Positions 38,213-61,515 of a stretch of 64,000 bases of DNA are shown here, one piece after another. Position numbers and translations under genes: made by a program. The notes beneath the pieces are model-generated. The model was not told the origin of the DNA. It saw only the letters and a program-made list of their open reading frames with translations, and ran no database searches. The DNA is from an uncultured Actinomycetota bacterium (GTDB lineage Bacteria; Actinomycetota; Actinomycetes; Streptosporangiales; Streptosporangiaceae). Location: positions 187,333 to 251,332 of the forward strand of contig CAWDVS010000026.1 of assembly GCA_963805805.1 (NCBI GenBank), in the 5' to 3' direction. Position 1 is the first letter of the stretch, and every line of letters begins with the position of its first letter.

Positions 38213-39326
38213 GTGATGGCTGGAATGTCGGCAAGCTGGACGGTGGATGACCTCGGCCCGGCGAAGGTTGTCTTCCTGCGCCTCCCTGCGGGGGTGAACG
38301 CGGTCGTTGTCATCGACAACGTCGCGCTGGGCCCGGCGATTGGCGGCGTGCGGATGAGGCCCGGTGTCACAGCCACCGAGGTAGCACGGCTAGCGCGTGC
38401 CATGACAGTCAAGAACGCTGTGGTGGGGCTGCCGCATGGTGGCGGGAAGTCCGGCATAGCGGCACCGCCGGACTTGGCACCGGCCGATCACGAGCGGGTG
38501 ATCCGTTCTTTTGCCCGGGCGATCGAGCAGCTCACGGATTACATTCCGGGGCCGGACATGGGTACGACAGAGACCTCGATGGCTTACGTGCACGACGAGA
38601 TCTGCCGGGCGGTGGGCCTGCCCAGTGTGCTCGGGGGAATACCGCTGGATGAGCTCGGTGCGACCGGATTCGGCCTGGCGGTATGCGCCGAAGTCTTAGC
38701 CGAAGCCAAGGCGCTTGATCTTGGCGGGGCACGCGTCGTCGTCCAAGGTTTTGGCGCGGTCGGCAGCAACGCCGCGCGCGCAATCGGCGAGCGCGGCGCC
38801 ACCGTGATCGCCGTCTCGGACATCCTAGGTGCCACTTGGAACCCGGACGGGCTCGATATCGCGGCCGTCGCGGCGTACAAGCAGGCCACGGGCTCGGTCA
38901 CCGGATTCGCCGGCGGTACGATCTGTGCCACGAGATGACATCCTCGGCTTCGACTGCGACATCCTCGTTCCCGCCGCGCAGCCCGACGTCGTGACAACGG
39001 ACAATGCCGGCAAGATCAACGCCCGGGTGATCCTTGAAGGAGCCAACATTCCCGTTACCCGCGAGGCCGAGGCCGAACTGGCCGAGCGCGGCGTGCTCTG
39101 CGTCCCTGACGTGGTGGCGAACGCAGGCGGTGTCATCTGTGCAGCGGCCGAGTTCCGCGGGGCCGGCCACATCGAGGCATTCGCTGAAATCGAGGAGAAG
39201 ATCCGTGAAGCAACGAGCGAACTGCTGGACCGCACCGGCCGCGGCTCGCTGACTCCGCGCGCGGCGGCTGAACAGATGGCGGAGGCACGGCTGAGCAGGG
39301 CAGTTGCCCTGCGCCGAAGGTTCTGA
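38213..39326 (+). pseudogene. Glu/Leu/Phe/Val dehydrogenase family protein, frame-disrupted at about 38927
   Basis: It has the GLPHGGGKSGI catalytic-Lys motif and the VVVQGFGAVGSNAA Rossmann motif. The continuation PRDDILGFDCDILVPAA...ILEGANIPVT is in the +1 frame. Confidence 0.8.
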
Positions 39327-39391
39327 CGTGCTGACGTCGTGGCTCGCGCGTGCTGAGTGCAAGCTGCCCGGCGGAGTCGGGTGGCTAACGG

Positions 39392-40072
39392 ATGGCCGAG
39401 CGCCGCCACGCGGAGGGCATGCGTTATACCAAGCGCCGCATGGACTTCCTGCTCAACCGCTGGACCCTCAAGCTGGCCGTGAGCCGTGTGCTCGGCTGGC
39501 CCGACGATGACGCCGTGCTGGCGCGGATAGAAGGACGCACGGCCCGCGACGGCGCACCCGAGCTTTTCGTTGGCGGGCAGCCTGCTGCCCGCGGCATCTC
39601 GCTTACTGACCGGGCAGGCTGCGCTGCCTGCCTGGTTGCGGACGGGCCTGCCGCGATCGGATGCGATCTGGAACTCGTGGAAGCGCGCAGCGACGCGTTC
39701 GTGCATGACTACCTGACGGAGTCCGAGCGCGATCTGGTCGCAGCCGCTGGCCCGGCTCGCGACGTCGCCGCCAACCTCATCTGGTCAGCCAAGGAGAGCG
39801 CGCTGAAAGTGCTCCGCACCGGCCTGCGCCGGGATACCAGGTCGGTCGAGGTGACCGTGGAAGACCTGACGCCACCGGAGCGGGCCTGGTCTCCGCTCCA
39901 GGTCCGTGCCGTCGAGGGCCTCACTTTCGGCGGCTGGTGGCGGCGGAGCGGATCGTTCGTGCTTACCGCATGCGCATCCGGACAACTCCTGCCGCCGGCG
40001 GCGCTGGAGGGAATCTCGCCGCTGGACGAGCTGTCTCCCTCGCATACCTGGCTGCACCGGCCGCTGGCATAG
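39392..40072 (+). CDS. Sfp-type 4'-phosphopantetheinyl transferase (N-terminus probably extends to about 39316 in another frame)
   Basis: It has GCDLELVE (Mg-binding D..E) and WSAKESALK (W/FxxKE(A/S)xxK). The upstream frame encodes VLTSWLARAECKLPGGVGWLTDG, which reads into ERRHAEGMRYTKRRMDFLLNRWTLK. Confidence 0.8.
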   Translation: MAERRHAEGMRYTKRRMDFLLNRWTLKLAVSRVLGWPDDDAVLARIEGRTARDGAPELFVGGQPAARGISLTDRAGCAACLVADGPAAIGCDLELVEARSDAFVHDYLTESERDLVAAAGPARDVAANLIWSAKESALKVLRTGLRRDTRSVEVTVEDLTPPERAWSPLQVRAVEGLTFGGWWRRSGSFVLTACASGQLLPPAALEGISPLDELSPSHTWLHRPLA

Positions 40073-43000
40073 CTTTGCCGCCATTGCCCTAGCTGGTATG
40101 TCGCTGCGGAGTGCGGCCGCGCCGGGCGCTAGTGCAGGCGGTCGCTCTGGTGTCGGCGCGAGCCGCCGCTCAAGCGCTTCGATGATGAATGGACGCAGCT
40201 CAGCGGCCGGGATGATGTCATCGACCGAACCCACCCGCCTGGCCCGCTGGACGTCGTGAATGCTGTCGAACTCATCGGCGACTTGCTTGAGCTTCTCGGC
40301 CCGAACTACCTGAGTGAGGACGGTCAGCTCATGCCGCAGGTCTGCGCGGGCGTCGGCCAGACCAGCTGCGAGCTTCTCGCGCCCGGTCACGATTCGCGGA
40401 TCATTGTCAGTCCTGGCGCTAACCTCGCGCGCAAAGACCACCGCGGCGGCTGGTCCGCCGCCGATCACCGACGCGTAAGAGCCGGCCACCGCAGCAGTCA
40501 CCATGCCGTCGTGCAGTCGCTTGGAAAACACTACGAAGGCGCCGCCGTGGTAGCGCGAAACCACCACGAAGATTATCGGGCCCCGGAAGTTAGTCACCGC
40601 GCGGCCGATCTCCGCGCCATACTCCAGTTGCCACTTGCGCATGCTCTCCGGTGAGCCGTCGAATCCGCTGAGGTTCGCCAGGACTACCAGGGGGCGGTTG
40701 CCGCTCGCGGCGTTCACGGCGCGGGCGATCTTGCGCGAGGACTGCGGGAAGAGCGTGCCGGATGTCCACGATGGCGGACCGTCGGCCGGGACGAATCCGG
40801 TGCGGGGAAGGGTCTGTGATTCGAGGCCGATGAGGCAGACCGGGAACCCGCCGACGTGCGCTTCCCAGACGATGGCGTTCTCGGCGTCGCGCCACCTCAT
40901 CCAGCGCTCGAACGGCTCATGATCAGTGTCGGTGACGGCGCGCATTACTGATCGCATGTCGAAAGGCTTCTTGCGCTCGCCATTCAGCTCGGCGGAGAAG
41001 ATATCCCCGATGCGCTGAAAATCCGACCCGGCAACGGTCTCGTGCGGCGACAGGCATACGTCCCGGTCAAATGGGTCGCTGGTGGGCGCCCGCCTCGGGC
41101 AGTCCTCACCCGGGACGATGTACGTGTGCTCGTAGTGCCGGAGCAACAGGGCGCATGCGTCGGCCAGGGTGGGGGCCCAGTACTGTCCTTGTCCGTTCGG
41201 GCCCATGATCCGGTCGAATCCGCCGATCCCGAAGTTGTCCTCGGCCGACACTCCGCCCGAGTAGTCCAGTGAGCTCTTGCCCGTCAGCACCATCGCGCTG
41301 TTCGGCGTCATCACGAGGATTCCGCGCGTATGCATGAGCATGGTGGCCTCGGCGTTCCAGTAGGGCTGCGCACCAACGTTGATCCCGGTGACCACGACGT
41401 TGATCTCACCGCCTGACTGCGTGAACTCGATCAGGCGCCGCAGCACCGCGGCTATCCAGTCCATGTTCTCGGTACCGCTGTCCCAGGCGATGCGGGCGCC
41501 CGAGGAGAGCGCGAACCACTCGACGGGAACCCTCATCCGACGGGCAAGTGCCAGCGCCCCGAGAATGCGGCGGCATTCCGGCTCGGCGAGGTTTCCCAGG
41601 CCCGAGGTCGGGTCGCCGAGAATTGCTACGCGACACATGCCCTCAGGTACCAGCGGGGTGTAGTTACTGATCACCCCGACCACGATGCCGGCGACGTTGC
41701 GGCCGTAGGGCCGGTCGACCGGCATTAGCTCGTCGCTGCTGTCGTCGAGGTCGTACTCGGTGAACGCGCCAGCAGGGAAGTCGGCGGGCGCGTTCAGCGG
41801 TGGAGTGAGCGTCCGGATGAGCTCATACGGATAGGGAAACCCGAGGCGCTGCGATCGCAGCAGCTTCTGCTTGTACTCAGTCAGTGGCCTGATTGGCCGG
41901 TCGGCAACTGGCCGGACTCGTACGCTGACCGCGCTGTCGGCGACGTTCTCTACGTCGAGGACAGCGTCATGGCCTTCCCCGGTGGCCGCATCCACCGTCC
42001 GGATCCTCACCGTGATCTTCTCAATGCCAAGGCCCGCGGCCATCGGTGCCAGCCTGTGGGCCACGCCACGCCAGGTCCCTTGTGCGATGTCCCAGGTCGG
42101 GCGCACGTAGAGGATGATCCGGTTGGTCAGCGGCCGCTGCTTCTGGGGCCGGCGGCTGAGCGCGTGACGGATGTCGGCAAGCGCCTGAGCAAGAACTCCC
42201 TCCAACTGCGGGAAGCCGATTGCCCGGCCGCCCGAGTCTCTGGCGGCGGTGAGGTCGCGAATCTCGGCGATTGCGATCAGGCGCTCGTCCTTCGGGTTCT
42301 CGCGGGCGACCGCGTGGAACAGGTAGATGTCCTCGGCGCTGGACATCCGCTGGAGAGTGAAGTTTGATAGCCGCCACAGCTCGAGACGCTCGGCGATCAT
42401 GGGATGCAAATTGCGGTAGAGCGGGTCCTCGGTGAACCCCGCATCGTCCTGGCGGAAGGTGAAGTGCAGGGTGCGCAGGTGCTCCTCGGGCTCTGCCTCC
42501 GGATCGGGGCCGCTCTCAGTGGTGACCGTGATGTCGAGACGGTGCAGCATATGACCGAAGTCAGTTCGCTGAAGCAAAGAGGCCAGCTCGGCGGCCATCT
42601 GCTCGGCATCCATCCACTCGCCGCTCCGCCAGGACTCGATATCCAGGACGACATGCTGGTCCGGGGGCAGGGTGGCGAGAAACGCCCGCAGCTCAGTGGC
42701 GAATCCGGCAAGGTCCGCGATGGACACATACCCGGTGACCAACTGCACGTCCCGCCCATCCTCGGTGTAGTTGGCGAGGCAGATCAGGTGCGGGCCGAAT
42801 GCGTGGCATCTCATCTGAGCAAGCTCGTGGATCCGGTAGTACCGGAGGGTCCGTGCCTGTAGCAGCCGTATCCTCGTGGTGGCATCCGCGTCGCGGTACC
42901 TTTCCCGCAGCAGCGCGCGCATTGGCTGCGGGCACCACATGAGGCGATCGGTGAGCTGGCGGAGACGTTCTCCGGAGGGATGTGCGGCGAGTTCGTCGAT

Positions 43001-45712
43001 GCACCGCTCCATCTCCGCATGCACTTGGTGGCGCTGGCGCCCTAGCGTCGGCGCATCGACGTAGCTGCGGCGCACCTCAAGTGCCAGGTCGCAGACTTCA
43101 TGATGACGTCCCTGCGTTGCGGCGACGAGACGGTCGAGGACCGCGAGCCGCTCGTCGGTCATCAGAGCCACCAGCGCGTCGCGCCGGTGCAGCCACTGGT
43201 CCAGGAGCGCCATGATGACCGGCGCGGTGACGTGGACTCGCGCAAGAGACCGGTACATGCGCAGCAGCGCGTGCTCAAGTTCCGGCGTGCGCCGCAGCGA
43301 CGTGACGCCGTAGCGCGCCAGCGCCCGGCGCAGCGGGCTGAGGAAGCGCGCCGGCAGCGCGCTGCGCTCTGGATCGAGAACGGCCAGGTAGGTGAACAGG
43401 TAGTCCTCGGCGCTGTGGGCGTGCTCATCCTCGGCCTCGTCCGGCTCACGCCGTGCCAGCGTGGCGATGTCGGCGAATATGTCGAGAAGTTCTTGCTGCT
43501 GGCCGACTAGGCCCGGGTCGGCCGGGCCGGCAGCTGTATTCATCGCCTCCTGCCTGATGCTCAGCGCCCGCGCGGCATCCTGGTCGACGTCATAGCCGAG
43601 CAAGTAGCCGCGAAGAGTAGCAGGATCGCCATGGCCGTCGGGGTTGTGTCCGTCCGCGCCGAAACCGGTTGCCAGTGCAGCCAGATCGAACCGCTGCCCG
43701 GCCGTGGCATGACGGTCCGGCTGATCCGGTGGCAGCAGCTGCACCAATGACGCGCCGGCCTCCACCTGTGTGTTGACGCGGGCGAGCACGGCGTGGACCG
43801 TACCTGGAAGAGGAGCCGTGATGGAGGTCTCCATTTTCATGCTCTCGACCACGATGAGCGGATCGCCGGCCCTGACCGTATCGCCAGGGGCGACGAGGAC
43901 CTGGACAACGAACGCGGGGGCCGGGGCGCGGACGTGACCTCCGTCGTCGCGGGTGATGACGTGGGGTATGCCGCCTACTTCAATGATGATCCTCGGCCCT
44001 TGTACATCGGCGACGACACGAAGGCGCTGCCCGAGGCAGGTCACGGCGCGCTCGTAGCGGCTGAGGCGCTGGACATTCACGTCTATGACACCCTCGCCGG
44101 TGTCGACTCGGTAGTCACCGCGCTCTAGGCAGTAAACGTGCATTCGGTAGGTGTTGCCGCGCAGGCTCAGCTCGACCGCGTGCCCAACCTTGTCCGGCAA
44201 TTCCGGCCGCCCGCGAGCCGCGGCCGCAAAGAAGTTGGCCTGGACGGCGGCCTGATCCACGTCGGCCGCCTCGATGGCCGCCGCCAGCAGCGCAACGGGG
44301 TTCTGCTGCGGAAGATGCTGCCCGGCGGCGGTAAGCCGGTCGAGCCATTGGTTGTCGTAGCTGCCCGCACGCATCTCAGACCGGTCAACCAGGGCGAGCA
44401 GGAAGGCCTTGTTGGTGGTCCCGCCGTCAACGACGACGACCGATTGCGCAAGGGCGCGGTGCAGCCTGCTCAGTGCCTCGGGCCGGTCCTGGCCCAACGC
44501 GACGACTTTGGCGATCATCGAGTCGAACTCGGGCGCGATCTCGTCGCCCTCCGCGAGGCCGGCGTCGACGCGGATACCCGGGCCGCACGGCGCCCGCAGC
44601 GCGGACACCCGGCCAGGTGCCGGGGCGAAAGCGTGCTCTGGGTCCTCGGCGTTGAGGCGAGCTTCGATGGCGTGCCCGCGGATCAGCGGCGGGCTCCCCT
44701 CCAGCCGCCCACCTTGCGCGATGTGGAGCTGCAGTTTGACCAGATCGAGTCCGGTGGTCAGTTCGGTGACCGGGTGCTCGACCTGGAGCCGGGTGTTGAC
44801 CTCCATGAACAGGGATTTCCGGGTCGCCGGATCGACGAGGAACTCGACCGTGCCGGTGCTCTTATAGCCCGCCGCGGCGCATAGCCGGACAGCCGCGTCG
44901 CGCAGCGCATTCTCTGCGGACTTGTCGAGCAGGGTGCAGGCCGACTCCTCGATGACCTTCTGGTTGCGCCGCTGAACGCTGCAGTCGCGGACGCCGACCG
45001 CCCACACCGCGCCATGGCCATCGGCCACCACCTGAACTTCCACGTGGCGCGCGGCATCCTGCCTGCGCTCGATGAAGACAGTGCGGTCACCGAACGCGTG
45101 GTCCGCCTCGGCCTGGGCGGTAGCGAACGCGTCGCGCATGCGATCGGCGGATTCCACCGCTCTGATGCCCCGGCCTCCCCCTCCAGCAGCTGCCTTCACA
45201 AGTACCGGATAGCCCAGCATTCCCGCGGCGAGCAGCGCGCTGTCGGCGTCATGGACGGGACCTCCGCTCCATGGCACGACGGGGACACCGACGCTCTCAG
45301 CAAGCCGCTTGGCATTCACCTTGTCGCCGAGGAGCCGGATGGTCTCACTGGACGGGCCGACGAAGGTGATACCCGCGCGCTCGCAGCGTTGGGCGAATTC
45401 GGCCGACTCGGCGACAAAGCCCCAGCCCACCCAGACAGCGTCGGCGCGCGCCTCTGCAAGCGCTGTCATCAGCCGGTCGAGATCGAGGTAGGTGCTCTTG
45501 CGGCGGCCGTCAGGGTCGGCGAAGGTCGCCGGGCCGAGCAGCACGGCCTCGCTGGCTTCCCGGACGAACCACGCTGCTGAGTCCGGCTGCGTGTACAGGG
45601 CGATCGTGGCGATAGGGTCGCTGGAGTCCGAGTTGAGCTCCGCGACCGCGGCGATGCAGCGCATCGCCGCTTCTCCGCGGTTGACAATGGCGAGTCTGCG
45701 AATGGTGGTCAC
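39785..45712 (-). CDS. fused multidomain acyl/acetyl-CoA carboxylase (biotin carboxylase - BCCP - central region - carboxyltransferase); 3' ~300 nt of the ORF is doubtful
   Basis: The GTG start follows GGGAG. The BC ATP-grasp domain starts IAIVNRGEAAMRCI.... The biotinyl motif VVESMKMET has its Lys codon at 43835-43837. The C-terminus is a CT domain (...GGAFVVFS...). The last ~95 aa are Arg-rich and antisense to the PPTase gene. Confidence 0.85.
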   Translation of the reverse strand: MTTIRRLAIVNRGEAAMRCIAAVAELNSDSSDPIATIALYTQPDSAAWFVREASEAVLLGPATFADPDGRRKSTYLDLDRLMTALAEARADAVWVGWGFVAESAEFAQRCERAGITFVGPSSETIRLLGDKVNAKRLAESVGVPVVPWSGGPVHDADSALLAAGMLGYPVLVKAAAGGGGRGIRAVESADRMRDAFATAQAEADHAFGDRTVFIERRQDAARHVEVQVVADGHGAVWAVGVRDCSVQRRNQKVIEESACTLLDKSAENALRDAAVRLCAAAGYKSTGTVEFLVDPATRKSLFMEVNTRLQVEHPVTELTTGLDLVKLQLHIAQGGRLEGSPPLIRGHAIEARLNAEDPEHAFAPAPGRVSALRAPCGPGIRVDAGLAEGDEIAPEFDSMIAKVVALGQDRPEALSRLHRALAQSVVVVDGGTTNKAFLLALVDRSEMRAGSYDNQWLDRLTAAGQHLPQQNPVALLAAAIEAADVDQAAVQANFFAAAARGRPELPDKVGHAVELSLRGNTYRMHVYCLERGDYRVDTGEGVIDVNVQRLSRYERAVTCLGQRLRVVADVQGPRIIIEVGGIPHVITRDDGGHVRAPAPAFVVQVLVAPGDTVRAGDPLIVVESMKMETSITAPLPGTVHAVLARVNTQVEAGASLVQLLPPDQPDRHATAGQRFDLAALATGFGADGHNPDGHGDPATLRGYLLGYDVDQDAARALSIRQEAMNTAAGPADPGLVGQQQELLDIFADIATLARREPDEAEDEHAHSAEDYLFTYLAVLDPERSALPARFLSPLRRALARYGVTSLRRTPELEHALLRMYRSLARVHVTAPVIMALLDQWLHRRDALVALMTDERLAVLDRLVAATQGRHHEVCDLALEVRRSYVDAPTLGRQRHQVHAEMERCIDELAAHPSGERLRQLTDRLMWCPQPMRALLRERYRDADATTRIRLLQARTLRYYRIHELAQMRCHAFGPHLICLANYTEDGRDVQLVTGYVSIADLAGFATELRAFLATLPPDQHVVLDIESWRSGEWMDAEQMAAELASLLQRTDFGHMLHRLDITVTTESGPDPEAEPEEHLRTLHFTFRQDDAGFTEDPLYRNLHPMIAERLELWRLSNFTLQRMSSAEDIYLFHAVARENPKDERLIAIAEIRDLTAARDSGGRAIGFPQLEGVLAQALADIRHALSRRPQKQRPLTNRIILYVRPTWDIAQGTWRGVAHRLAPMAAGLGIEKITVRIRTVDAATGEGHDAVLDVENVADSAVSVRVRPVADRPIRPLTEYKQKLLRSQRLGFPYPYELIRTLTPPLNAPADFPAGAFTEYDLDDSSDELMPVDRPYGRNVAGIVVGVISNYTPLVPEGMCRVAILGDPTSGLGNLAEPECRRILGALALARRMRVPVEWFALSSGARIAWDSGTENMDWIAAVLRRLIEFTQSGGEINVVVTGINVGAQPYWNAEATMLMHTRGILVMTPNSAMVLTGKSSLDYSGGVSAEDNFGIGGFDRIMGPNGQGQYWAPTLADACALLLRHYEHTYIVPGEDCPRRAPTSDPFDRDVCLSPHETVAGSDFQRIGDIFSAELNGERKKPFDMRSVMRAVTDTDHEPFERWMRWRDAENAIVWEAHVGGFPVCLIGLESQTLPRTGFVPADGPPSWTSGTLFPQSSRKIARAVNAASGNRPLVVLANLSGFDGSPESMRKWQLEYGAEIGRAVTNFRGPIIFVVVSRYHGGAFVVFSKRLHDGMVTAAVAGSYASVIGGGPAAAVVFAREVSARTDNDPRIVTGREKLAAGLADARADLRHELTVLTQVVRAEKLKQVADEFDSIHDVQRARRVGSVDDIIPAAELRPFIIEALERRLAPTPERPPALAPGAAALRSDIPARAMAAKLCQRPVQPGMRGRQLVQRRDSLQRRRRQELSGCACGKHERSAPPPPAAESEALDGTDLERRPGPLRWRQVFHGHLDRPGIPAQAGAEHFQRALLG

Positions 45713-45745
45713 GCCGGCTCCCGTAGCCGCGAGTAACTCACGTCA

Positions 45746-46545
45746 GCCCCGCATAGCTGCACGTATCGGGCGCTGGAGCTCGTCCGCAATCGCACCGGGC
45801 AGCGCCATGGAACGGTACCCGTCGATGCGGACGAGCACGTCGCCGGCCGAGTCCACGACGCGGCAGTCGAAACTGCCGTCGCTCACCGGATGAACGAGAG
45901 CGAGCAGGGGCCCGTTGCCACGTGGCTTGTGCAATGTCCGGATCAGGTCGGCATGCCAGGGCAGCGCCAGCCGCCCCGCCTGGCCGATGTCCCACAGACC
46001 GACCGTCTGGAAGCACAGCTCGGCCAGCAGTGGCTCGGTCGTCGTCGGATCTCCCGATGGCAGGTGGTCGGGGGGCAGGTGCTCGGCTAGTCGGCCGACG
46101 ACGTGACCGTTGCAGCGCCACGCCTCGTCGAGCACCTGGTAGGCGGGGCCATGGGGGAACACGCGGTAAATGTCGGCATGGCCGACACGCGCGGCAGTAG
46201 CACTGGTGGGGGAGTCATCAATCTCCGGGCGCAGCGCCTGCGTAGTGAGCCGGACGCTGCCGGTGAAATGCGTTGTCCAGCGCGGTGCCTCGTCCCCCTT
46301 GATCATCCTGCTGCAGAGCCATCGCGCAGTCCGCCACGAGGTCGGAGCCATCCCTGCGGACCACCGCCCGAACCGTCACCGTCCGCGGCTCATCGCGGTA
46401 GAACTTCACTGGCGCCATGAAGTCCATTCGCTCAACGCCCGCCACGTTCAGGTCCGGAGCTGCGAGGCTCGCGACTGCGGCGAAGGCCTCGGCGCCCATG
46501 ACCCCGGGGAGCACCGTGATGGATTCGATCTTGTGATCATGCAGG
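45746..46545 (-). other. PKS domain DH (polyketide-type double hot-dog dehydratase)
   Basis: It has FLHDHKIESITVLPGVMGAEAF (HxxxGxxxxP) and a second motif region LLAELCFQTVGLW. A frame break lies at about 46310-46330. Confidence 0.75.
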
Positions 46546-46564
46546 AACGGCTGTGCTAGCTGGG

Positions 46565-48140: not shown

Positions 48141-48343
48141 GACGCGTTTGGTGTCGTCCAGGGTCACGCCGGTGAGGGAGCACCACTCGATCGGAGGCCG
48201 CAGCACCGGAATCGGAATCCGGCGCGGCAGCGCTTCGGCTGCGGCGATGTCTCCTGTGAACGCGGGCGTGCTCCGAAACGCCGGCGGTGCCTCCTGGGCC
48301 GTCGGGGAGTTGTGGCCAGCCGGGCCGCTGCGAGCTGTGCCCG

Positions 48344-48929: not shown

Positions 48930-49018
48930 CGGCGGCGGCGGCCGGCTCGCCCGGTGTCACCGGTGGCAGGCTGCCCGTGCGCTCCGGAGCCGAGCCGTTC
49001 GGTGCGTCGGTCACCTGC

Positions 49019-54245: not shown

Positions 54246-54280
54246 CTGCGGCTGGCGTGGAGCGGGCTTGCTTGCAGAGC

Positions 54281-56711: not shown

Positions 56712-57248
56712 ATGCGCGAGATCACTTACGCGGTACAAGGATTTCTGACAGTCCGCAGGGACTCCTTGCGCGTGCCTGTGAGCGGGTCGCTAGCAGTCCA
56801 GGCTGACCCGGACTCGGGCCTCTTCACGGGCGACCTCGTCCTCGACCAGTCCACGATCAGCCGGATAGTCCTTGGCGCCAGCCTGTACAGCGCTACCGTC
56901 CAGATTGTGCCCGACTCTCCCGTCATCGGCAGAGTCGACCACGAGGGCCAGCTCTTCGCGACAGTCACGGTCGACGCGGTCATAGCTGCTGTCCACGTCG
57001 CCGGGCGGACGTTGCTCGGTGGCGCCTCATGCCGGACCGCCACTCACGCCGTCGTGCCGTTGCGCTCCAAGCCCGGCTTCCACCTGGAGCAGGGCGGCCG
57101 CCTGGCCGGCCGGTACCACCGGCCGCCCTTTACTGGCTGCGGGTGGAGCACTCCGCTTATCAACCTGCTTGTCGCCGGCCCGGGGAACGCCGTTGTCATT
57201 GACCTCGTCCCGGCCGCAGGGTGTCCCGCAACGCCTCAAGCGCAGTGA
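56712..57248 (+). CDS. hypothetical protein (178 aa, no recognised domain)
   Basis: The ATG is preceded by a strong SD (GAGGGAGGAGG). The composition is protein-like and beta-rich. The 3' end overlaps the convergent SDR gene by ~50 nt. Confidence 0.55.
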   Translation: MREITYAVQGFLTVRRDSLRVPVSGSLAVQADPDSGLFTGDLVLDQSTISRIVLGASLYSATVQIVPDSPVIGRVDHEGQLFATVTVDAVIAAVHVAGRTLLGGASCRTATHAVVPLRSKPGFHLEQGGRLAGRYHRPPFTGCGWSTPLINLLVAGPGNAVVIDLVPAAGCPATPQAQ

Positions 57249-58251
57249 AGCGGGGTGCCCAGCCCAGTTCGCGCTTCGCCCGGGTAGTGTCCATGATCGC
57301 CGGATGGCTGGCCGCCTCCACCCACTGCGCGATGGGCGGAAGGAACGGCAGGGCGGCGAACGCCCGGGCCGTGAACTGGGCCGGGCCCACGGGCAGGGGC
57401 AGCGGGAGCATGCCGAGTTCACGGGCGATGTCGGCGGCGGTGACGATCCCGTCGGCGGCGATGTTGTAGGCACCGGGCGGTCCGGCCGCGACGACACACC
57501 GCAGCAGTGCCTGCCCCGTGTCTTCCTCGTGGACCAGCTGCAGCGGCAGCGCCGGCACCAGCACCGGCAGTGGAATCTGGCCAGCCAGCCTGCCCAGACG
57601 GCGGGCCAGCGGAGCCAGCGGCCCGGGCAGCTGGTCCTTCGCGCCCACAGCGTGCGGGCCCACCACGATTGACGGACGCAGCAGGTAAAGGGCTGGTCTG
57701 GGCCCTGACCCAGCAGCGGTCTCGTCCCGCAACAGGGTCTCGAGCTCAGCCTTTTCCTGGGCGTAGAACAGCCGGGCGGCGGGCCGCACCGGCCAGTCTT
57801 CGGTCATGCCCACAGGGTTATCGGGGTGGAAGCCGTAGGCCGCCACTGAGGACGAATAGACAAAACGGCGGGCCCCGGCCGCGGCCGCGGCACGGAATGC
57901 GTTCAGCGTGCCTTCGACGTTGACCGACCGGATCGCCTCACGTGACGCGGCGCCGGTAACCAAGAACGCCAGATGCACCACCACGTCGGCATCGCCGAAC
58001 GCGGCACGCAGGGCGCCGGGGTCGCGGACATCCCCGCGGTGGTACACCATCTTCGTCCAGCCGTATGCGACCGGGTCGAACGGGCGCCGGGCAATGCCCA
58101 CGATTCGCGCCACGCGGTCGTCTGCCTGGAGCAGGGGCATCAAGCCGAAGCCGAACGTACCGGTCGGACCGGTTACCGCGACTGTAAGATCCGTCTCTCT
58201 GGCAGGCACCGAATCGGCTACCTCCCTGGCCCTAGTTGTCTGGCACAGCAT
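57196..58251 (-). CDS. extended SDR, NAD-dependent epimerase/dehydratase / 3beta-HSD-like family
   Basis: It has VAVTGPTGTFG (GxxGxxG) and a YAQEK (YxxxK) catalytic pair. The start is taken at the ATG at 58251. Confidence 0.8.
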   Translation of the reverse strand: MLCQTTRAREVADSVPARETDLTVAVTGPTGTFGFGLMPLLQADDRVARIVGIARRPFDPVAYGWTKMVYHRGDVRDPGALRAAFGDADVVVHLAFLVTGAASREAIRSVNVEGTLNAFRAAAAAGARRFVYSSSVAAYGFHPDNPVGMTEDWPVRPAARLFYAQEKAELETLLRDETAAGSGPRPALYLLRPSIVVGPHAVGAKDQLPGPLAPLARRLGRLAGQIPLPVLVPALPLQLVHEEDTGQALLRCVVAAGPPGAYNIAADGIVTAADIARELGMLPLPLPVGPAQFTARAFAALPFLPPIAQWVEAASHPAIMDTTRAKRELGWAPRFTALEALRDTLRPGRGQ

Positions 58252-58472
58252 GACACCGTGCCCGCCGGTGCTGCAGGGTCGAAGGTCCTGGCAGCTACTA
58301 CCAGGAGCGAAAGCTCCTGCCGCTAACCCGGCGTGAGGGGCCGCCTCCGCCGCGCCGTGTGGAGCGAGGGCGGATGCGCGAGCTGGTACCTGGACGCCGA
58401 TGGCGTAATCGTGCACTATGGCCGGGATTCAGCACGCACTCGGCGCCCGCGCCGCGGCGATTACGTGATCCG

Positions 58473-59363
58473 CTAACGATCCTGGGCGCCCGCCATCAGG
58501 TCCGGGTCATGCGCTTCGCTGTCCGCCCAGACGCGGTCCAGGAACTCGCTGATCTCGGCGGTCAGCCGGGCAGGCCGCAGCCACAGCTCAGCGAACGTGC
58601 GGGTGCGGATCAGCCGGGCGTCAGGAAGCTGCCGCGCCAGGTTTCTCGCATCACTGAATGAGTGGATCAGGTCGATCCCGTGTCCCAGCACCAGCGCCGG
58701 AACGGTGATCGACCGGCGCTGGTCGGTGGTCGGGGCGATGGGACCGAGCAGAACACCGTGCAGCACGGCGGCGATTTCGTCGGGATCCGACCTGGCCGCA
58801 CTGATGAACGAGCCGAACGGGCCGAACGGGGATAGCGGCAGGAGAGAGGCGGCCCGGGATACCACTCGCAGCGGGACACGGGCGTAGTGGACGCCGAGCA
58901 GGAGCGGCAGGAACACGAGCGCTGCCGCGGGGACGGCCCACTCCAGCACCGGCATTTCGAGAATCAGGCCGCGGACCCTCTCGGGTGCCTGCACGGCGGT
59001 TAGCAGGCTCACATTGGTGCCCAGAGAAACACCCCCGAGCACCACCTGATCTACGCCGAGTTCGTCCAGCAGGCACAGCACCTGCCCGGCGTACAGGTCC
59101 ATCCGGTGGGCTCCCGCATGGCGGGGCTTGTCGCTGCGGCCATGGCCCAGCAAGTCGAGCAGCACGACCCGGTTGCCCTGCGCCGCCAGGGTCCTGGCCA
59201 GGCCCCGGCTGAGGTTAGCGTCCAGCAGCAAACCGTGCAGCCACACGATCACCCGGTCGCCCGAGCCGTAGACCTCGTAGCCCAGCTGGTACTGACCGTA
59301 GGACAACGAATGCTTGGCACCCTCGGGAGCTTGTTCTGGATTGTGCTCCTTATCCAAGCTCAT
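58473..59363 (-). CDS. alpha/beta-fold serine hydrolase (possible thioesterase/lipase)
   Basis: It has VWLHGLLLD (oxyanion region), a GVSLG nucleophile elbow and a late HGIDLIH. The remainder of the 753-aa ORF is antisense to the KASIII gene. Confidence 0.8.
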   Translation of the reverse strand: MSLDKEHNPEQAPEGAKHSLSYGQYQLGYEVYGSGDRVIVWLHGLLLDANLSRGLARTLAAQGNRVVLLDLLGHGRSDKPRHAGAHRMDLYAGQVLCLLDELGVDQVVLGGVSLGTNVSLLTAVQAPERVRGLILEMPVLEWAVPAAALVFLPLLLGVHYARVPLRVVSRAASLLPLSPFGPFGSFISAARSDPDEIAAVLHGVLLGPIAPTTDQRRSITVPALVLGHGIDLIHSFSDARNLARQLPDARLIRTRTFAELWLRPARLTAEISEFLDRVWADSEAHDPDLMAGAQDR

Positions 59364-59495
59364 GGCGGTATCGACAGGTCGGATAGCCGTCTGGGAGTGA
59401 CGTTCGCCCCTATCGCCAGGCACCCGGAGCCGGAAAACTCTCATCCCTAACGATAACGCCAAGCGCGCGCCGCGATCGGTGCACGAGGGGGACCA

Positions 59496-60629
59496 ATGGC
59501 CGGAACCCGCGGCACCCAGGCGAGCCATTGGCTGGCGCTCGAGTCGCGCGATTCTGCTGGCATCTGGGGCTGCCGGATCGAGAGCGTCGGCGTCAAACTG
59601 CCCGCAGGGAAGCTGACGACCAAGAATTTGATGAACCAGACCAAGCACCGCACCAAGATCCAGCTCGAGCGGCTGACGGGCATCCATGAGCGTTATGTCG
59701 TAGGGCCGGGCGAGAACTCCTTGACCCTGGCCGCCGGGGCGGCGCGCGACTGCCTGGCTCATTCGCAGCATCAGGCGCCCGACATCGAGATGCTGATCAG
59801 CACCAGCATCACCCGCTCTACGCCCCGGTCCTGGCAATCCTTCGAGCCCCCGCTCAGCCTGCAGGTCAAGCAGGCGATCGGCGCCACGCAGGCCGTGAAC
59901 TTCGATCTGTCCAACGCGTGTGCGGGCATGCTGACCGGGGTGTTCGTCCTTCAGGACCTCATCGCCCGAGGCGAGATCAGCTGCGGCATGGTGGTTTCCG
60001 GCGAGTACATCTCCCACCTGAGCTGGAACGCGGCGAAGCAGATCCGCTCGCTGTTCAGCAAGCAACTGGCATCGCTCACGCTCGGTGACGCGGGTGCCGC
60101 CGTGATCGTGGAACGGGCACCCGTTGGCGGACCGGGCATCGATGTCATCGGCTTCACTACTCTCGCCGAGCACAGCCGCCTGTGCCTCGCATTCCCCAGC
60201 ACCGCGGGGCCGGGCGCCCAGATGTACACCAAGTCCAGGGAACTGCAGAAGGTGGCCATAGAGGACATGGCGCCGCTGGTCGCCGAGGTGATCGGCGAGG
60301 CCGGCATAGCCCTGGATGACATCGACTACCTGATCCCGCATCAGACCTCGGCCAGGGCCATCCGCCAGGGCGCGCAGGAATTCGCCCGGCGCCTCGGGGC
60401 CAAGCCGAAGCACATAGTTGTCAACCTGGAGGAGTACGGCAACACGTCCTCGACAACGTTGTTCGTGGCTCTCCACAAGTACCTCGTGGAGCAGCGAATG
60501 CACAAGGGAGACAAGGTGATGCTGCTGGCACTCGCCTCCGGCATCGAGATCGTCATCGCGGTTTTTACCGTCGAAAGCCAGGTGGACCACTATGGGCGCA
60601 CGGATTGTCGCCGCCAGCGCGCTGACTAG
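59496..60629 (+). CDS. KASIII (FabH-like) condensing enzyme with complete Cys-His-Asn triad
   Basis: It has FDLSNACAG (Cys), YLIPHQTS (His) and EEYGNTSSTT (Asn). The ATG lies 5 nt after GAGGGGGA. Confidence 0.85.
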   Translation: MAGTRGTQASHWLALESRDSAGIWGCRIESVGVKLPAGKLTTKNLMNQTKHRTKIQLERLTGIHERYVVGPGENSLTLAAGAARDCLAHSQHQAPDIEMLISTSITRSTPRSWQSFEPPLSLQVKQAIGATQAVNFDLSNACAGMLTGVFVLQDLIARGEISCGMVVSGEYISHLSWNAAKQIRSLFSKQLASLTLGDAGAAVIVERAPVGGPGIDVIGFTTLAEHSRLCLAFPSTAGPGAQMYTKSRELQKVAIEDMAPLVAEVIGEAGIALDDIDYLIPHQTSARAIRQGAQEFARRLGAKPKHIVVNLEEYGNTSSTTLFVALHKYLVEQRMHKGDKVMLLALASGIEIVIAVFTVESQVDHYGRTDCRRQRAD

Positions 60630-61515
60630 CCGCGGGCTGCGCATGCCAACTGCGCGGCGCCTCGCAGATGCGGCCGCCGTTGCCTGCCTTGCGCATGCGG
60701 GAAAAGACCCCGGAGATGTCGACATGCTGATCAACGCCGGCGTCTACCGGGAAGACAATATGGGCGAGCCCGCGCTCGCTGCCCTCGTGCAGGAGGACAT
60801 CGGGGCCAACCGGGGCCAGCCGCCTGTCAATGGACACGGCACGTTCTCGTTCGACCTCATCAATGGCACCTGCGGCGTGATCAGCGCCATCCAGCTTGAG
60901 GCTGGCTTGCTGCGTTCCGGCGTCATCCAGCTTGGCGCGATCGTGACGAGCGATGTTCATCCGCAGCTGACAGATCCGCGATCTGCTCCCTTCCGGCCGA
61001 CGGGCGGCGCCATGCTCCTCGGCTGGGATGACAGCATCGCCGGCTTCAGCGACTTCTACGCGGAGACGTTTCCCGAGTACCAAGATCTGTTCGCCAGCGG
61101 GCTCGTGTGGCAGGAGCGACGCGGGCTTCGCGTGCCGCTGCGGGCAGGAGGCAAGAGCCACATGGTCATTGACGAGAAACCTGGTTACCATGCCCGCCTG
61201 GCCGATTGCGCTGAGGAGGCAACGCGTCGCTTCCTGCACCGCCTGGGCATGGGCGTGAGCGATATCGACCTGCTAGTCCCGGCCCCTTCCGCCGCAGGAT
61301 TCCTTGACACCTTGATCGCCAGACTCGGTCTTCCGGGCGACCGGGTCGCCTATGTGCCAGAAGACCTTGAGGCTGCCTACACCACCGGGCCCATCGCCGC
61401 CGTGCAGGCGGCCATCAGGTCTGGCCGGCTCGATGAGGCCCGGACCACTCTTGTGCTCGCAGCCGGGGCAGGCATCACTGTGGCCCTCGCCCTGTATCGC
61501 CAGACACCGTCCTGA
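60592..61515 (+). CDS. KASIII-like partner protein retaining Cys but lacking the His/Asn positions
   Basis: It has FDLINGTCGV (Cys kept). LLVPAPSAAG replaces PHQ(A/T)N, and EAAYTTGP replaces GNTS. It overlaps the upstream KASIII gene by 38 nt. Confidence 0.75.
   Translation: MGARIVAASALTSRGLRMPTARRLADAAAVACLAHAGKDPGDVDMLINAGVYREDNMGEPALAALVQEDIGANRGQPPVNGHGTFSFDLINGTCGVISAIQLEAGLLRSGVIQLGAIVTSDVHPQLTDPRSAPFRPTGGAMLLGWDDSIAGFSDFYAETFPEYQDLFASGLVWQERRGLRVPLRAGGKSHMVIDEKPGYHARLADCAEEATRRFLHRLGMGVSDIDLLVPAPSAAGFLDTLIARLGLPGDRVAYVPEDLEAAYTTGPIAAVQAAIRSGRLDEARTTLVLAAGAGITVALALYRQTPS

What the first reader, a model, noticed from the sequence alone, without database searches (positions are those of the whole stretch)
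39316..61515. Uncharacterised lipid/polyketide gene cluster: Pfa-like megasynthase + fused ACC + ACAD + PPTase + KASIII pair/SDR/hydrolase
**Layout.**
- One minus-strand operon runs ACAD (54281-56002), then PKS (45743-54284), then a multidomain acetyl-CoA carboxylase (to 45712). The ACAD-PKS junction is an ATGA overlap and the PKS-ACC gap is 30 nt.
- An Sfp-type PPTase converges on the operon.
- Upstream lie a hypothetical gene, an extended SDR, a Ser hydrolase and two KASIII-type genes, arranged as divergent units.

**Why it does not fit known systems.**
- Canonical pfaABCDE would also need a PfaB AT, a PfaC KS-CLF-DH2 and a PfaD FMN enoyl reductase, and none of these is present.
- An enediyne PKSE has a single ACP and an integrated PPTase.
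- oleABCD would need an OleC ligase.

A dedicated malonyl-CoA supply gene sitting next to an iterative PKS also suggests a high-flux lipid product.
Basis: partly seen in the sequence, partly recalled or inferred. Interest (0 to 1): 0.85.

Follow-up and report, generated by a model that had tools for sequence, protein, structure and literature searches.

The report
Widespread uncharacterised PfaA-like lipid synthase operon
The genes are real, but they form one copy of a widespread, still uncharacterised soil-bacterial lipid-synthase operon (flavin dehydrogenase, giant synthase, acetyl-CoA carboxylase, activating enzyme) whose carrier domains always have threonine where every known carrier protein has serine, and the neighbouring KASIII/reductase/hydrolase genes are a separate module.

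Summary
**Observation: confirmed.** HMM searches confirm every gene call, the ATGA overlap and the 30-nt gap.

**Interpretation: partly supported.**
- The PKS reads KS-AT(malonyl)-KS2-3×ACP-KR-DH, but only after seven frame corrections.
- The frameshifts are most likely assembly errors:
  - two 97%-identical assemblies carry one 2,958-aa gene;
  - other window genes are split too;
  - dN/dS is 0.08-0.43.
- The locus is not an orphan. More than 592 species-level genomes carry it, in Actinomycetota, Acidobacteriota and a few other phyla.
- In related loci the order is strict: ACAD upstream in 67/67, ACC downstream in 56/56, PPTase after ACC in 24/26.
- This matches the catalogued but uncharacterised "Type R" secondary-lipid synthase of Shulse & Allen 2011.
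- The KASIII pair, SDR and hydrolase are a separate conserved module. It is usually found elsewhere, next to a WS/DGAT gene.

**New family-level features.**
- All 237 ACP motifs examined read DLG[VI]DTVK, with Thr at the phosphopantetheine site and never Ser.
- The ACAD has a rare, family-specific C-terminal domain.
- About a third of related loci place etfB-etfA-etfD directly upstream of the ACAD.

**Best reading.** A self-contained iterative lipid synthase in which the ACAD, working with ETF, supplies the flavin redox step. That step is probably enoyl reduction. The product is unknown.

The parts
39392..40072 (+). Sfp-type 4'-phosphopantetheinyl transferase, convergent on the operon
   Evidence: Pfam ACPS hit, E 3.5e-14. 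A homologue follows the ACC in 24/26 related loci that extend far enough.
40142..45712 (-). Single-chain, eukaryote-type acetyl-CoA carboxylase (BC, BCCP with MKM biotin site, central region, CT). The ORF continues to 39785, past the end of homology.
   Evidence: Pfam hits to Biotin_carb_N, CPSase_L_D2, Biotin_carb_C, Biotin_lipoyl, ACC_central and Carboxyl_trans. The best solved-structure matches for the CT region are eukaryotic ACC CT domains. Collinear with the 1879-aa L002 ACC over residues 9-1874. Lies next to the PKS in 56/56 loci.
45743..54284 (-). PfaA-like iterative type I synthase. After seven frame corrections it is 2847 aa: KS1-AT-KS2-ACP×3-KR-DH.
   Evidence: tblastn against intact homologues, rebuilt protein and Pfam on the rebuilt protein. 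NCBIfam PfaA model TIGR02813 scores 587 bits on the KS-AT part, below its cutoff of 1010.
52845..54248 (-). KS1 domain (DAACAS Cys, HGT His, GH His)
   Evidence: Pfam ketoacyl-synt and Ketoacyl-synt_C at aa 13-425. Motifs read from the sequence.
51489..52382 (-). Acyltransferase domain with GHSLGE and HAFH motifs (malonyl-type)
   Evidence: Pfam Acyl_transf_1 at aa 635-932. NCBIfam FabD E 1e-56. Motifs read from the sequence.
49634..51143 (-). KS2, a second in-line ketosynthase that keeps Cys-His-His (NSACAS, SHETYT, GFTGH). It is not a Cys-less chain-length factor. Frameshift 1 (an extra base at 50615) lies inside it.
   Evidence: Pfam and NCBIfam FabF-like hits. C251, H398 and H438 are invariant in alignment A1. 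The extra base is absent from L001, L083 and L084.
48344..49246 (-). Three tandem ACP domains (49013-49246, 48688-48906, 48344-48562), each with [10 protein letters not shown]. The Thr codons are at 49139-49141, 48805-48807 and 48461-48463. Frameshifts 2-4 lie in the linkers.
   Evidence: tblastn; Pfam PP-binding ×3. The Thr aligns with the Ppant Ser of solved ACPs.
46849..48335 (-). KR domain (structural plus catalytic halves). Frameshift 5 is at 47534.
   Evidence: Pfam KR and adh_short; tblastn; indel against L001.
45746..46553 (-). PKS-type double-hotdog dehydratase. Frameshifts 6 and 7 are at 46558 and 46317.
   Evidence: Pfam PKS_DH_N and PS-DH; indels against L001.
54281..56002 (-). Bcd-like acyl-CoA dehydrogenase (catalytic YEG Glu present) with a family-specific C-terminal extension of about 175 aa. 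Translationally coupled to the PKS through an ATGA overlap.
   Evidence: Pfam ACAD N, M and C domains. Best solved-structure matches are 5lnx, 5ol2_C and 1buc, over aa 25-392 only. The C-terminal extension has 287 hits among 1.84 billion representatives. Lies upstream of the PKS in 67/67 loci.
56712..57248 (+). Conserved hypothetical gene (178 aa). Belongs to the neighbouring KASIII module, not to the core.
   Evidence: No Pfam hit. The same gene is called in L084, and a hypothetical gene of 170-182 aa holds the same place, overlapping the SDR gene, in L085-L089 (not compared by sequence).
57196..58416 (-). Extended SDR (3β-HSD/epimerase family). Neighbouring module, not core. Probably about 351 aa.
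   Evidence: Pfam Epimerase and 3Beta_HSD. OleD models score only 39-42 bits against a cutoff of 580. Gene called as 351 aa in L083 and L084.
58473..59402 (-). Alpha/beta hydrolase (GVSLG serine motif). Neighbouring module.
   Evidence: Pfam Abhydrolase_1 and Hydrolase_4. 309-aa gene in L084.
59496..60629 (+). KASIII (FabH-like) with an intact Cys-His-Asn triad. Neighbouring module.
   Evidence: Pfam ACP_syn_III and ACP_syn_III_C. Alignment with E. coli FabH. Homologues are 82-98% identical.
60592..61515 (+). KASIII-like partner lacking the His and Asn of the triad. Neighbouring module.
   Evidence: Pfam ACP_syn_III_C only. Alignment with FabH. Always follows the first KASIII gene.

Best explanation
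**What it is**
The core is a four-gene operon: ACAD, PKS, ACC, and a convergent PPTase. It encodes a self-contained, iterative, PUFA-synthase-like 'secondary lipid' synthase of the catalogued but uncharacterised Type R kind.

**Proposed steps (all inferred unless marked as shown)**
1. The dedicated Sfp-type PPTase activates the tandem carrier domains. Their attachment residue is Thr rather than Ser.
2. The eukaryote-type single-chain ACC makes malonyl-CoA on site.
3. The malonyl-type AT loads the ACPs. Two active ketosynthases, KS1 and KS2, extend the chain. The KR and DH domains give an enoyl thioester.
4. The Bcd-like FAD enzyme (ACAD) is always translationally coupled to the synthase (shown by synteny) and carries a family-specific C-terminal domain (shown). 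It supplies the only missing redox step.
   - Most likely it reduces the enoyl intermediate with electrons from ETF.
   - Many relatives link ETF to the menaquinone pool through a co-encoded EtfD.
5. No thioesterase is present. Release is probably by acyl transfer, and WS/DGAT acyltransferases sit next to the cluster in some relatives.

**Other points**
- The product is a long-chain fatty-acyl lipid of unknown structure.
- The seven frameshifts in this copy are most likely long-read assembly errors, not gene decay.
- The KASIII pair, SDR and hydrolase next door are a separate lipid module.
For: **Anatomy**
- Domain calls and intact catalytic motifs.
- The best family model for the KS-AT part is PfaA.
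- The ACC CT region is most similar to eukaryotic ACC CT domains.

**Synteny**
- ACAD upstream in 67/67 loci, ACC downstream in 56/56, PPTase after ACC in 24/26, across several phyla.
- An ACAD-PKS fusion protein exists (P0084).
- The PKS is an intact single ORF of 2560-2920 aa in five cultured isolates and two acidobacterial MAGs.

**ACAD and its redox partners**
- The ACAD C-terminal domain is nearly confined to this family.
- The nearest ACAD relatives are Bcd, AcrC and CarC enzymes. These work with ETF as enoyl-CoA reductases (the physiological role is established knowledge).
- etfB-etfA-etfD lies directly upstream of the ACAD in 18-21 loci.
- The FeS-CCG protein matches solved EtfD at E 1e-238.

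**Carrier domains**
- Thr sits at the Ppant site in 237/237 motifs, with synonymous codon turnover.

**Frameshifts as artefacts**
-.

**Literature**
- The Type R architecture is described in PMC3098273.
Against: - No biochemical or genetic data exist for any member, as far as I could find.
- The direction of the ACAD reaction is not known. EtfD normally takes electrons from ACADs to menaquinone, which is the oxidative direction (PMC8593149, listed).
- Seven related loci carry an NMO/FabK-like flavoenzyme directly upstream of the ACAD. It could be the true enoyl reductase there, which would leave the ACAD another role.
- Whether Thr is phosphopantetheinylated is untested.
- The release step and the product are guesses.
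- The PKS has a higher frameshift density (7 in 8.5 kb) than the ACAD plus ACC (0-1 in 7.6 kb).
Confidence: 0.55

Rival explanations
1. One reading: one biosynthetic cluster in which the PKS product is passed to the KASIII pair, SDR and hydrolase. An example would be an Ole-like head-to-head condensation giving a branched or very long lipid.
For: - The two gene sets are adjacent here and in the 97%-identical L083 and L084.
- Parts of the module also lie just upstream of the ACAD in L033, L080, L007, L003 and L020, in different orientations.
- In L088 the KASIII pair is followed by a FadD/OleC-like ligase and flanked by an alpha/beta hydrolase and an SDR, which gives an Ole-like set.
- From established knowledge, Shewanella feeds Pfa products into OleABCD.
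Against: - The module is absent from the upstream flank in most of the 67 loci, including the 90%-identical L001.
- It stands alone with WS/DGAT and no PKS in L085-L089.
- KAS3a matches FabH models and no OleA model. The SDR scores 39-42 bits on OleD models whose cutoff is 580.
- No OleC-type ligase turned up among the window ORFs scanned.
Confidence: 0.2
2. The synthase makes a conjugated polyene or other unsaturated chain with no enoyl reduction, as KS-AT-ACP-KR-DH enediyne-type PKSs do. The ACAD acts oxidatively and passes electrons through ETF and EtfD to menaquinone. It might desaturate a fatty-acyl starter or introduce an extra double bond.
For: - The synthase has no ER domain.
- EtfD and ETF normally oxidise ACADs (PMC8593149, listed).
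- FadD-like ligases, which could activate a fatty-acid starter, lie next to the cluster in 5 loci.
- In the NMO/FabK-containing subclade the ACAD is kept alongside a candidate ER.
Against: - None of the enediyne hallmarks is present: no fused PPTase domain, no single ACP, no thioesterase cassette.
- Tandem ACPs and a dedicated ACC point to high-flux fatty-acyl synthesis. The link between tandem ACPs and throughput is stated in PMC3098273.
- The closest ACAD relatives include reductive Bcd, AcrC and CarC enzymes.
Confidence: 0.2
3. In this genome the PKS is a decaying pseudogene, and the cluster is a relic.
For: - The PKS has seven frame disruptions, while the ACAD has none and the ACC has none or one.
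- The indels are not in long homopolymers.
Against: - Two 97.4%-identical assemblies carry a single 2,958-aa gene.
- The extra base at 50615 is private to the window.
- GH65, GDH, GMC-oxidoreductase and MoxR genes in the window are also split.
- L001 and L083 each have their own private indels.
- dN/dS of the PKS segments against L001 is 0.08-0.43, similar to the ACAD at 0.15 and the ACC at 0.21.
- Three of the seven shifts lie in the repetitive ACP linkers.
Confidence: 0.1

Closest known systems
'Type R' secondary-lipid synthase gene clusters (Shulse & Allen 2011, PMC3098273): Koribacter, Solibacter, Roseiflexus, Elusimicrobium
   Same: - One PfaA homologue with KS-MAT-'CLF'-ACP(3-6)-KR, followed by a PPTase gene. 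In Koribacter an ACC gene lies between them.
- The window protein has the same order.
- Homologues with 59-71% identity occur in Terriglobales and Bryobacteraceae MAGs, the lineages of Koribacter and Solibacter.
- The product is unknown in both cases.
   Different: - The paper does not report the upstream ACAD, the terminal DH, the ETF/EtfD linkage or the Thr in the ACPs.
- Its 'CLF' is here a full KS with Cys-His-His.
- I could not place the window KS in their phylogeny, because no reference sequences were available.
Canonical PUFA synthase PfaABCDE (EPA/DHA synthases)
   Same: - PfaA-like KS-MAT-tandem ACP-KR-DH.
- A dedicated Sfp-type PPTase.
- An iterative mechanism using malonyl-CoA.
- PfaA is the best-scoring NCBIfam model (TIGR02813, 587 bits).
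   Different: - The score is below the model's cutoff of 1010.
- There is no PfaB, no PfaC (KS-CLF plus two FabA-type DH domains) and no PfaD.
- Instead there is an in-line second KS, an obligatory ACAD and a dedicated single-chain ACC.
- The carrier domains have Thr, not Ser.
Enediyne PKSE (e.g. SgcE, CalE8)
   Same: KS-AT-ACP-KR-DH without an ER domain, working iteratively.
   Different: - PKSE has a single ACP and a fused C-terminal PPTase domain. It is accompanied by a thioesterase and the enediyne cassette.
- None of these is present here.
Bcd/EtfAB, acryloyl-CoA reductase and caffeyl-CoA reductase systems, and mycobacterial ACAD-EtfBA-EtfD beta-oxidation
   Same: - The ACAD core is most similar to Bcd-type enzymes (5ol2_C, 1buc, 6fah_C) and to the NCBIfam AcrC model.
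- Relatives co-encode EtfB, EtfA and an EtfD orthologue.
   Different: - Here the ACAD is welded to a megasynthase operon.
- It carries an extra C-terminal domain that is rare elsewhere.
- Its substrate is probably ACP-bound, and its direction is unknown.
OleABCD olefin / beta-lactone pathway
   Same: The neighbouring module has a thiolase-superfamily condensing enzyme, an alpha/beta hydrolase and a 3β-HSD-type SDR. A relative (L088) adds an AMP-ligase.
   Different: - The condensing enzyme is a FabH-like heterodimer, not OleA.
- The OleD models score far below cutoff.
- No OleC turned up among the window ORFs scanned.
- The module is independent of the PKS in most genomes.
Eukaryotic-type single-chain acetyl-CoA carboxylase
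   Same: - BC, BCCP, central region and CT on one chain.
- The best solved-structure matches for the CT region are fungal and human ACC CT domains.
   Different: - It is bacterial and shorter, at about 1857 aa against 2200-2400.
- It is dedicated to one synthase operon.

Membership tests
Type R secondary-lipid synthase cluster (Shulse & Allen 2011) | Single PfaA homologue with the order KS-MAT-second KS-like ('CLF') domain-tandem ACPs-KR | tested here: met
   Pfam on the frame-corrected protein gives KS, AT, KS, 3×PP-binding, KR and DH in that order.
Type R secondary-lipid synthase cluster (Shulse & Allen 2011) | PPTase gene downstream, with an ACC gene in between in the Koribacter version | tested here: met
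   ACC at 40142-45712 and PPTase at 39392-40072. The same order holds in 56/56 and 24/26 loci.
Type R secondary-lipid synthase cluster (Shulse & Allen 2011) | The proximal KS groups phylogenetically with the Type R reference sequences | not tested
   The reference sequences (Koribacter, Solibacter, Roseiflexus, Elusimicrobium) were not available. The only indirect support is 59-71% identity to Terriglobales and Bryobacteraceae MAG homologues.
Canonical PUFA synthase (pfaABCDE) | PfaA family membership by the curated model TIGR02813 | tested here: not met
   The KS-AT part scores 586.7 bits against a cutoff of 1010.1. Only this fragment and the KS2-ACP1 fragment were scored, not the whole rebuilt protein.
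Canonical PUFA synthase (pfaABCDE) | PfaC (KS-CLF with two FabA-type dehydratases) and a PfaB acyltransferase | tested here: not met
   No such genes turned up among the window ORFs scanned. KS2 is in line and keeps its Cys. The rest of the genome was not available.
Canonical PUFA synthase (pfaABCDE) | PfaD, an FMN-dependent enoyl reductase of the NMO family | tested here: not met
   No window ORF that was scanned hit the NMO family. A weak NMO/FabK-like gene occurs upstream of the ACAD in 7 related loci only.
Canonical PUFA synthase (pfaABCDE) | Tandem ACPs with a phosphopantetheinylated Ser in LGxDS | tested here: not met
   Tandem ACPs are present, but the residue is Thr in 3/3 window motifs and 237/237 family motifs.
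Enediyne PKSE | Single ACP, a fused C-terminal PPTase domain, and the accompanying thioesterase / E3-E5 cassette | tested here: not met
   There are three ACPs, the PPTase is a separate convergent gene, and no thioesterase or cassette genes were found.
OleABCD | OleA condensing enzyme, OleC beta-lactone synthetase, OleD reductase, OleB decarboxylase | tested here: not met
   KAS3a matches FabH models only. The SDR scores 39-42 bits on OleD models whose cutoff is 580. The hydrolase gives only generic hits. No AMP-ligase turned up among the window ORFs scanned.
Single-chain (eukaryote-type) acetyl-CoA carboxylase | BC, BCCP with a biotinyl-Lys motif, central region and CT on one polypeptide | tested here: met
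   Pfam gives all domains in order. The SMKM motif can be read in the sequence. The best CT matches are eukaryotic ACC structures. Substrate specificity cannot be tested here.
Acyl-CoA dehydrogenase (Bcd / short-medium chain clade) | Three ACAD domains and a catalytic Glu in the YEG motif | tested here: met
   Pfam N, M and C domains. IYEGTSEI can be read in the sequence. Best solved-structure matches are 5lnx, 5ol2_C and 1buc. Substrate and direction cannot be tested here.
Acyl carrier protein (PP-binding) | Conserved Ser as the 4'-phosphopantetheine attachment site | tested here: not met
   The fold-family match holds (PP-binding ×3). The Ser position is Thr in every copy. Whether the Thr is modified cannot be tested with these tools.

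The most novel reading that the evidence does not exclude
The family uses threonine as the prosthetic-group attachment site of its tandem carrier domains, giving O-phosphopantetheinyl-threonine. Thr is kept by strong selection: 237/237 motifs, with synonymous codon turnover and never Ser. The co-encoded PPTase would serve these domains and form a carrier/PPTase pair insulated from the housekeeping fatty-acid system. The synthase would also use an ACAD-type flavoenzyme with a private docking domain. That enzyme is wired through ETF and EtfD to the menaquinone pool, in place of the usual NAD(P)H- or FMN-dependent enoyl reductase. Together these would define a third design of bacterial fatty-acid/polyketide megasynthase, present in hundreds of soil species.
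Probability: 0.3. Interest if true: 0.8.

Novelty: new variant of a known kind. Interest (0 to 1): 0.6.

Why it matters
**Scale of the unknown**
- Hundreds of soil Actinomycetota and Acidobacteriota species, and a few from other phyla, devote about 17 kb to this operon. That includes a private acetyl-CoA carboxylase.
- Its product is still unknown 15 years after the architecture was first catalogued.

**What this analysis adds**
- It defines the true conserved core: ACAD, PKS, ACC and PPTase.
- It separates that core from a neighbouring KASIII lipid module.
- It names cultured strains with intact copies that could be used for experiments.

**Two features an enzymologist would not expect**
- The phosphopantetheine serine is replaced by threonine in every copy.
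- An acyl-CoA-dehydrogenase subunit is obligatory and is often linked to ETF and EtfD.

If the Thr is really modified, that widens what PPTases and carrier proteins are known to do. It could also provide an orthogonal carrier/PPTase pair for engineering.

Tried and rejected
1. **Long-chain acyl-CoA carboxylase idea.** I first guessed that the ACC was the mycobacterial 'long-chain acyl-CoA carboxylase' (MapLCC type) and that the window came from the M. avium group. Both ideas were rejected.
   - The solved-structure searches listed no long-chain acyl-CoA carboxylase.
   - The CT region is closest to eukaryotic ACC.
   - The closest genomes are uncultured Actinomycetota and Streptosporangiales MAGs.
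2. **Simple GC-phase frame plot.** It was too noisy to use. I replaced it with a codon-usage Viterbi model.
3. **Homopolymer test.** I checked whether the frameshifts lie in homopolymers. They do not, so this gave no verdict.
4. **Rfam scan of 38-64 kb.** It found no RNA family, including in the roughly 790-nt non-coding stretch upstream of the ACAD.
5. **Literature searches.** Searches for threonine phosphopantetheinylation, for ETF- or ACAD-linked PUFA-like synthases, and for follow-ups on Type R found nothing relevant. One search was badly posed and wasted.
6. **Last homologue search.** A search with the KR fragment was meant to retrieve the intact 2,958-aa conspecific protein. It returned only fragments. 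Frameshifts 2-7 could therefore be compared only with the 90%-identical L001, not with a 97% reference.
7. **NCBIfam.** It has no family-specific model for the ACAD, ACC or PPTase.
8. **Upstream flavoenzyme in seven relatives.** The PfaD family model does not match it. It gives only weak FabK and NMO hits.
9. **Structure prediction.** A single-sequence model of the ACAD tail would have been unreliable.

Full report
**1. The observation**

ORF listing and HMM searches confirm every element at the stated coordinates.

| Element | Coordinates | Note |
|---|---|---|
| ACAD | 54281-56002(-) | 573 aa |
| PKS region | 45743-54284(-) | overlaps the ACAD stop by ATGA |
| ACC | starts at 45712(-) | 30 nt after the PKS; BC, BCCP, ACC_central, CT |
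| PPTase | 39392-40072(+) | Sfp-type, convergent |
| Extended SDR | 57196-58416(-) | upstream |
| Alpha/beta hydrolase | 58473-59402(-) | upstream |
| KASIII-type genes | 59496-60629(+), 60592-61515(+) | upstream |

- The ORF at 56009-56533 has no family hit and no homologue in any related locus.
- A codon-usage model scores 56005-56793 as non-coding.

**2. State of the PKS**

tblastn with intact homologues shows the PKS spread over eight frame segments, which means seven frameshifts. Nucleotide alignment to the 90%-identical locus L001 pins four of them to single-base indels at 50615, 47534, 46558 and 46317. The other three lie in the ACP linkers. Seven edits give a stop-free 2847-aa protein.

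Several results argue that these are assembly errors.
- Two independent assemblies that are 97.4% identical to the window (L083, L084) carry the same neighbourhood with one 2,958-aa PKS gene.
- The extra base at 50615 is absent from L083, L084 and L001.
- L001 and L083 each have their own private indels in other genes.
- GH65, glutamate dehydrogenase, a GMC oxidoreductase and MoxR in the window are also split between frames.
- dN/dS against L001 is 0.08-0.43 for the PKS segments, 0.15 for the ACAD and 0.21 for the ACC.
- Five cultured isolates and two acidobacterial MAGs have one intact ORF of 2560-2920 aa.

The related loci include many 'MFD' long-read MAGs, which fits an error-prone consensus. 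Real decay cannot be excluded without the reads. The PKS does carry more shifts per kb than the ACAD and ACC.

The ACC ORF runs about 120 codons beyond the end of homology, into the PPTase gene. This is probably the same kind of artefact.

**3. Anatomy of the synthase**

The corrected protein reads KS1, AT, KS2, ACP×3, KR, DH.

| Domain | Motifs or Pfam calls |
|---|---|
| KS1 | DAACAS, HGT, GH |
| AT | GHSLGE, HAFH (malonyl type) |
| KS2 | NSACAS, SHETYT, GFTGH |
| ACP ×3 | [10 protein letters not shown] |
| KR | KR, adh_short |
| DH | PKS_DH_N, PS-DH |

- KS2 keeps Cys-His-His, and all three residues are invariant in a ten-sequence alignment across phyla. It is a real ketosynthase, not a Cys-less chain-length factor.
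- The best curated family model is PfaA. It scores 587 bits on the KS-AT part, below its cutoff of 1010.
- No ER or thioesterase domain is present.

**4. The carrier domains**

All three ACPs read [10 protein letters not shown].
- phmmer alignments to solved ACPs place this Thr exactly on the phosphopantetheinylated Ser. Examples are PigH (LGVDSI) and the S. coelicolor ACP (LDVDSL).
- In 120 homologous proteins, 100/100 motifs have Thr.
- In 69 genomic loci from several phyla, 237/237 motifs have Thr.
- The codon varies: ACC 119, ACG 114, ACT 6, ACA 2. No copy has Ser, although Ser is one base change away. Thr itself is therefore under selection.
- I found no paper that mentions this.
- These tools cannot show whether the Thr carries the prosthetic group.

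**5. Comparative genomics of the core**

Of these, 592 were confirmed as relatives.
- They include Actinomycetota such as Mycobacterium spp., Kineosporia, Paractinoplanes, Planobispora, Spirillospora, Trebonia and Nostocoides.
- They also include Ilumatobacteraceae, Thermoleophilaceae and several Acidobacteriota, plus single Gemmatimonadota and Burkholderiaceae MAG contigs.

Among the 80 loci kept:

| Feature | Loci |
|---|---|
| ACAD directly upstream, same strand | 67/67 |
| ACC directly after the DH | 56/56 |
| PPTase after the ACC | 24/26 |

- An ACAD-PKS fusion protein exists (P0084).
- The ACAD core is Bcd-like. Its best solved-structure matches are 5lnx, 5ol2_C and 1buc, and its best NCBIfam model is acryloyl-CoA reductase AcrC.
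- Its C-terminal extension of about 175 aa matches no solved structure. It has only 287 hits among 1.84 billion representative proteins. The full-length hits are ACADs of about 556-559 aa. It looks like a family-specific adaptor domain.
- The ACC CT region is closest to eukaryotic ACC CT domains.

**6. Variable partners**

Unbiased clustering of flanking ORFs gave three recurring groups.
- **etfB-etfA plus an FeS/CCG gene.** These lie directly upstream of the ACAD in 18-21 loci. Acidobacteriota have them too, in a different gene order.
  - The FeS/CCG protein has five N-terminal hydrophobic segments.
  - It matches the solved 'iron-sulfur-binding reductase' 9ojn_A at E 1e-238. I take that structure to be mycobacterial EtfD, the membrane oxidoreductase that couples ACADs to the respiratory chain through ETF (PMC8593149 and PMC13083937, listed).
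- **An NMO/FabK-like flavoenzyme.** One subclade of seven loci has this gene directly upstream of the ACAD and has no ETF genes there.
- **Tailoring enzymes.** WS/DGAT acyltransferases occur in 7 loci and FadD-like ligases in 5.

**7. The KASIII module**

- KAS3a keeps the FabH Cys-His-Asn triad. KAS3b lacks the His and Asn.
- KAS3a homologues are 82-98% identical across many metagenomes.
- In L085-L089 the pair sits in its own module, with no ACAD-PKS nearby. That module holds a hypothetical gene of about 180 aa, the SDR, WS/DGAT, KAS3a, KAS3b and an alpha/beta hydrolase. L088 adds a FadD-like ligase, an FMO-like monooxygenase and a MerR regulator.
- L088 comes from the same sample as L001 but lies on another contig.
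- Parts of the module are adjacent to the core only in the window lineage and in L033, L080, L007, L003 and L020.
- It is therefore an independent lipid module. A functional hand-over from the synthase is possible but not supported as a rule.

**8. Comparison with known systems**

- Shulse & Allen (PMC3098273) catalogued a 'Type R' cluster: KS-MAT-CLF-ACP(3-6)-KR plus a PPTase, with an ACC gene in between in Koribacter and an unknown product. This is the closest match.
- The locus is not a canonical pfaABCDE system, because it lacks PfaB, PfaC and PfaD.
- It is not an enediyne PKSE, and it is not oleABCD (see the membership table).
- I found no characterised product in the searchable literature. 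A MIBiG or antiSMASH comparison could not be run.

**9. Mechanism**

- **Shown:** domain content, catalytic motifs, strict synteny, the family-specific ACAD tail, the EtfD orthology and the Thr invariance.
- **Inferred:**
  - The ACC supplies malonyl-CoA and the AT loads it.
  - KS1 and KS2 elongate the chain, and KR and DH process it.
  - The ACAD performs the remaining Cα-Cβ redox step, exchanging electrons with ETF.
- **Direction of the ACAD step.**
  - I favour enoyl reduction. It is the only missing FAS activity, and the nearest relatives are reductive ACADs.
  - With menaquinol at about -74 mV and enoyl/acyl-CoA at about -10 mV (values from general knowledge), the reaction would be feasible.
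  - The oxidative direction remains a live rival. In that case the ACAD would desaturate a starter or add a double bond.
  - The FabK-like gene in one subclade weakens the simple 'ACAD = ER' reading.
- **Release and product:** both are unknown. Neighbouring WS/DGAT genes in some loci hint at esterification into neutral lipids.

**10. Verdict**

The locus is a new, probably intact member of a catalogued but uncharacterised variant of PUFA-synthase-like systems. The family has unreported features that deserve experiments.

Noticed in passing
window 49139-49141, 48805-48807, 48461-48463 (minus strand); 69 related loci: Every tandem ACP in this family has Thr where the phosphopantetheine Ser should be (DLG[VI]DTVKQAE). 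This holds for 237/237 motifs. The Thr codons vary synonymously but are never Ser.
   Followed up: yes
window 56712-61515; L085-L089: The KASIII pair belongs to its own conserved module: a hypothetical gene of about 180 aa, the SDR, WS/DGAT, KAS3a, KAS3b and an alpha/beta hydrolase. In L088 the module also has a FadD/OleC-like ligase, an FMO-like monooxygenase and a MerR regulator. The gene set looks Ole-like but uses a FabH-like heterodimer. KAS3a is unusually conserved, at 82-98% identity across many metagenomes.
   Followed up: partly
window 33757-35560, 35594-38160, 38213-39326, about 63604; also 32535-33806: Several genes outside the cluster are split between reading frames: a GMC oxidoreductase, a GH65 phosphorylase, glutamate dehydrogenase and the MoxR tail. 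A WS/DGAT ORF lacks its C-terminal domain. The window appears to come from an indel-prone long-read assembly.
   Followed up: partly
L040, L041, L043, L046, L055, L056, L067 (about 3.4-5.1 kb in each locus): One actinobacterial subclade has a roughly 490-aa NMO/FabK-like flavoenzyme directly upstream of the ACAD. None of the seven loci has etfBA or etfD in the sequenced flank. A DUF2505 gene lies further upstream in five of them.
   Followed up: partly
L002 4264-8298; L012, L015, L024, L044, L062 and others: etfB-etfA-etfD lies immediately upstream of the ACAD-PKS operon. The order is B-A-D in Actinomycetota and D-B-A in Acidobacteriota. The EtfD orthologue matches PDB 9ojn_A at E 1e-238.
   Followed up: yes
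window 54284-54820 (ACAD C-terminal 179 aa): The extension has only 287 detectable relatives among 1.84 billion representative proteins. A few of these sit at the N-terminus of much larger proteins, which suggests ACAD-PKS fusions such as P0084.
   Followed up: partly
L001 24016-24267: An ISL3-family transposase fragment lies between the ACC and the PPTase in the 90%-identical relative.
   Followed up: no
window 56005-56793: About 790 nt upstream of the ACAD has no coding signal and no Rfam match. It carries several indels relative to the 97%-identical assemblies. It is presumably the promoter or regulatory region of the operon.
   Followed up: partly
window 62092-64000; L084 12375-17121: Downstream of the KASIII pair lie a trypsin-like protease and a MoxR-DUF58-VWA-VWA/BatA operon. 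These look unrelated to lipid synthesis.
   Followed up: no
L073 (Nostocoides australiense Ben110): The locus is interrupted by nine 100-N gaps, so only the KS2 region could be matched. Many database proteins of this family are 'partial' and stop in the ACP repeats, which suggests that short-read assemblies break there.
   Followed up: no
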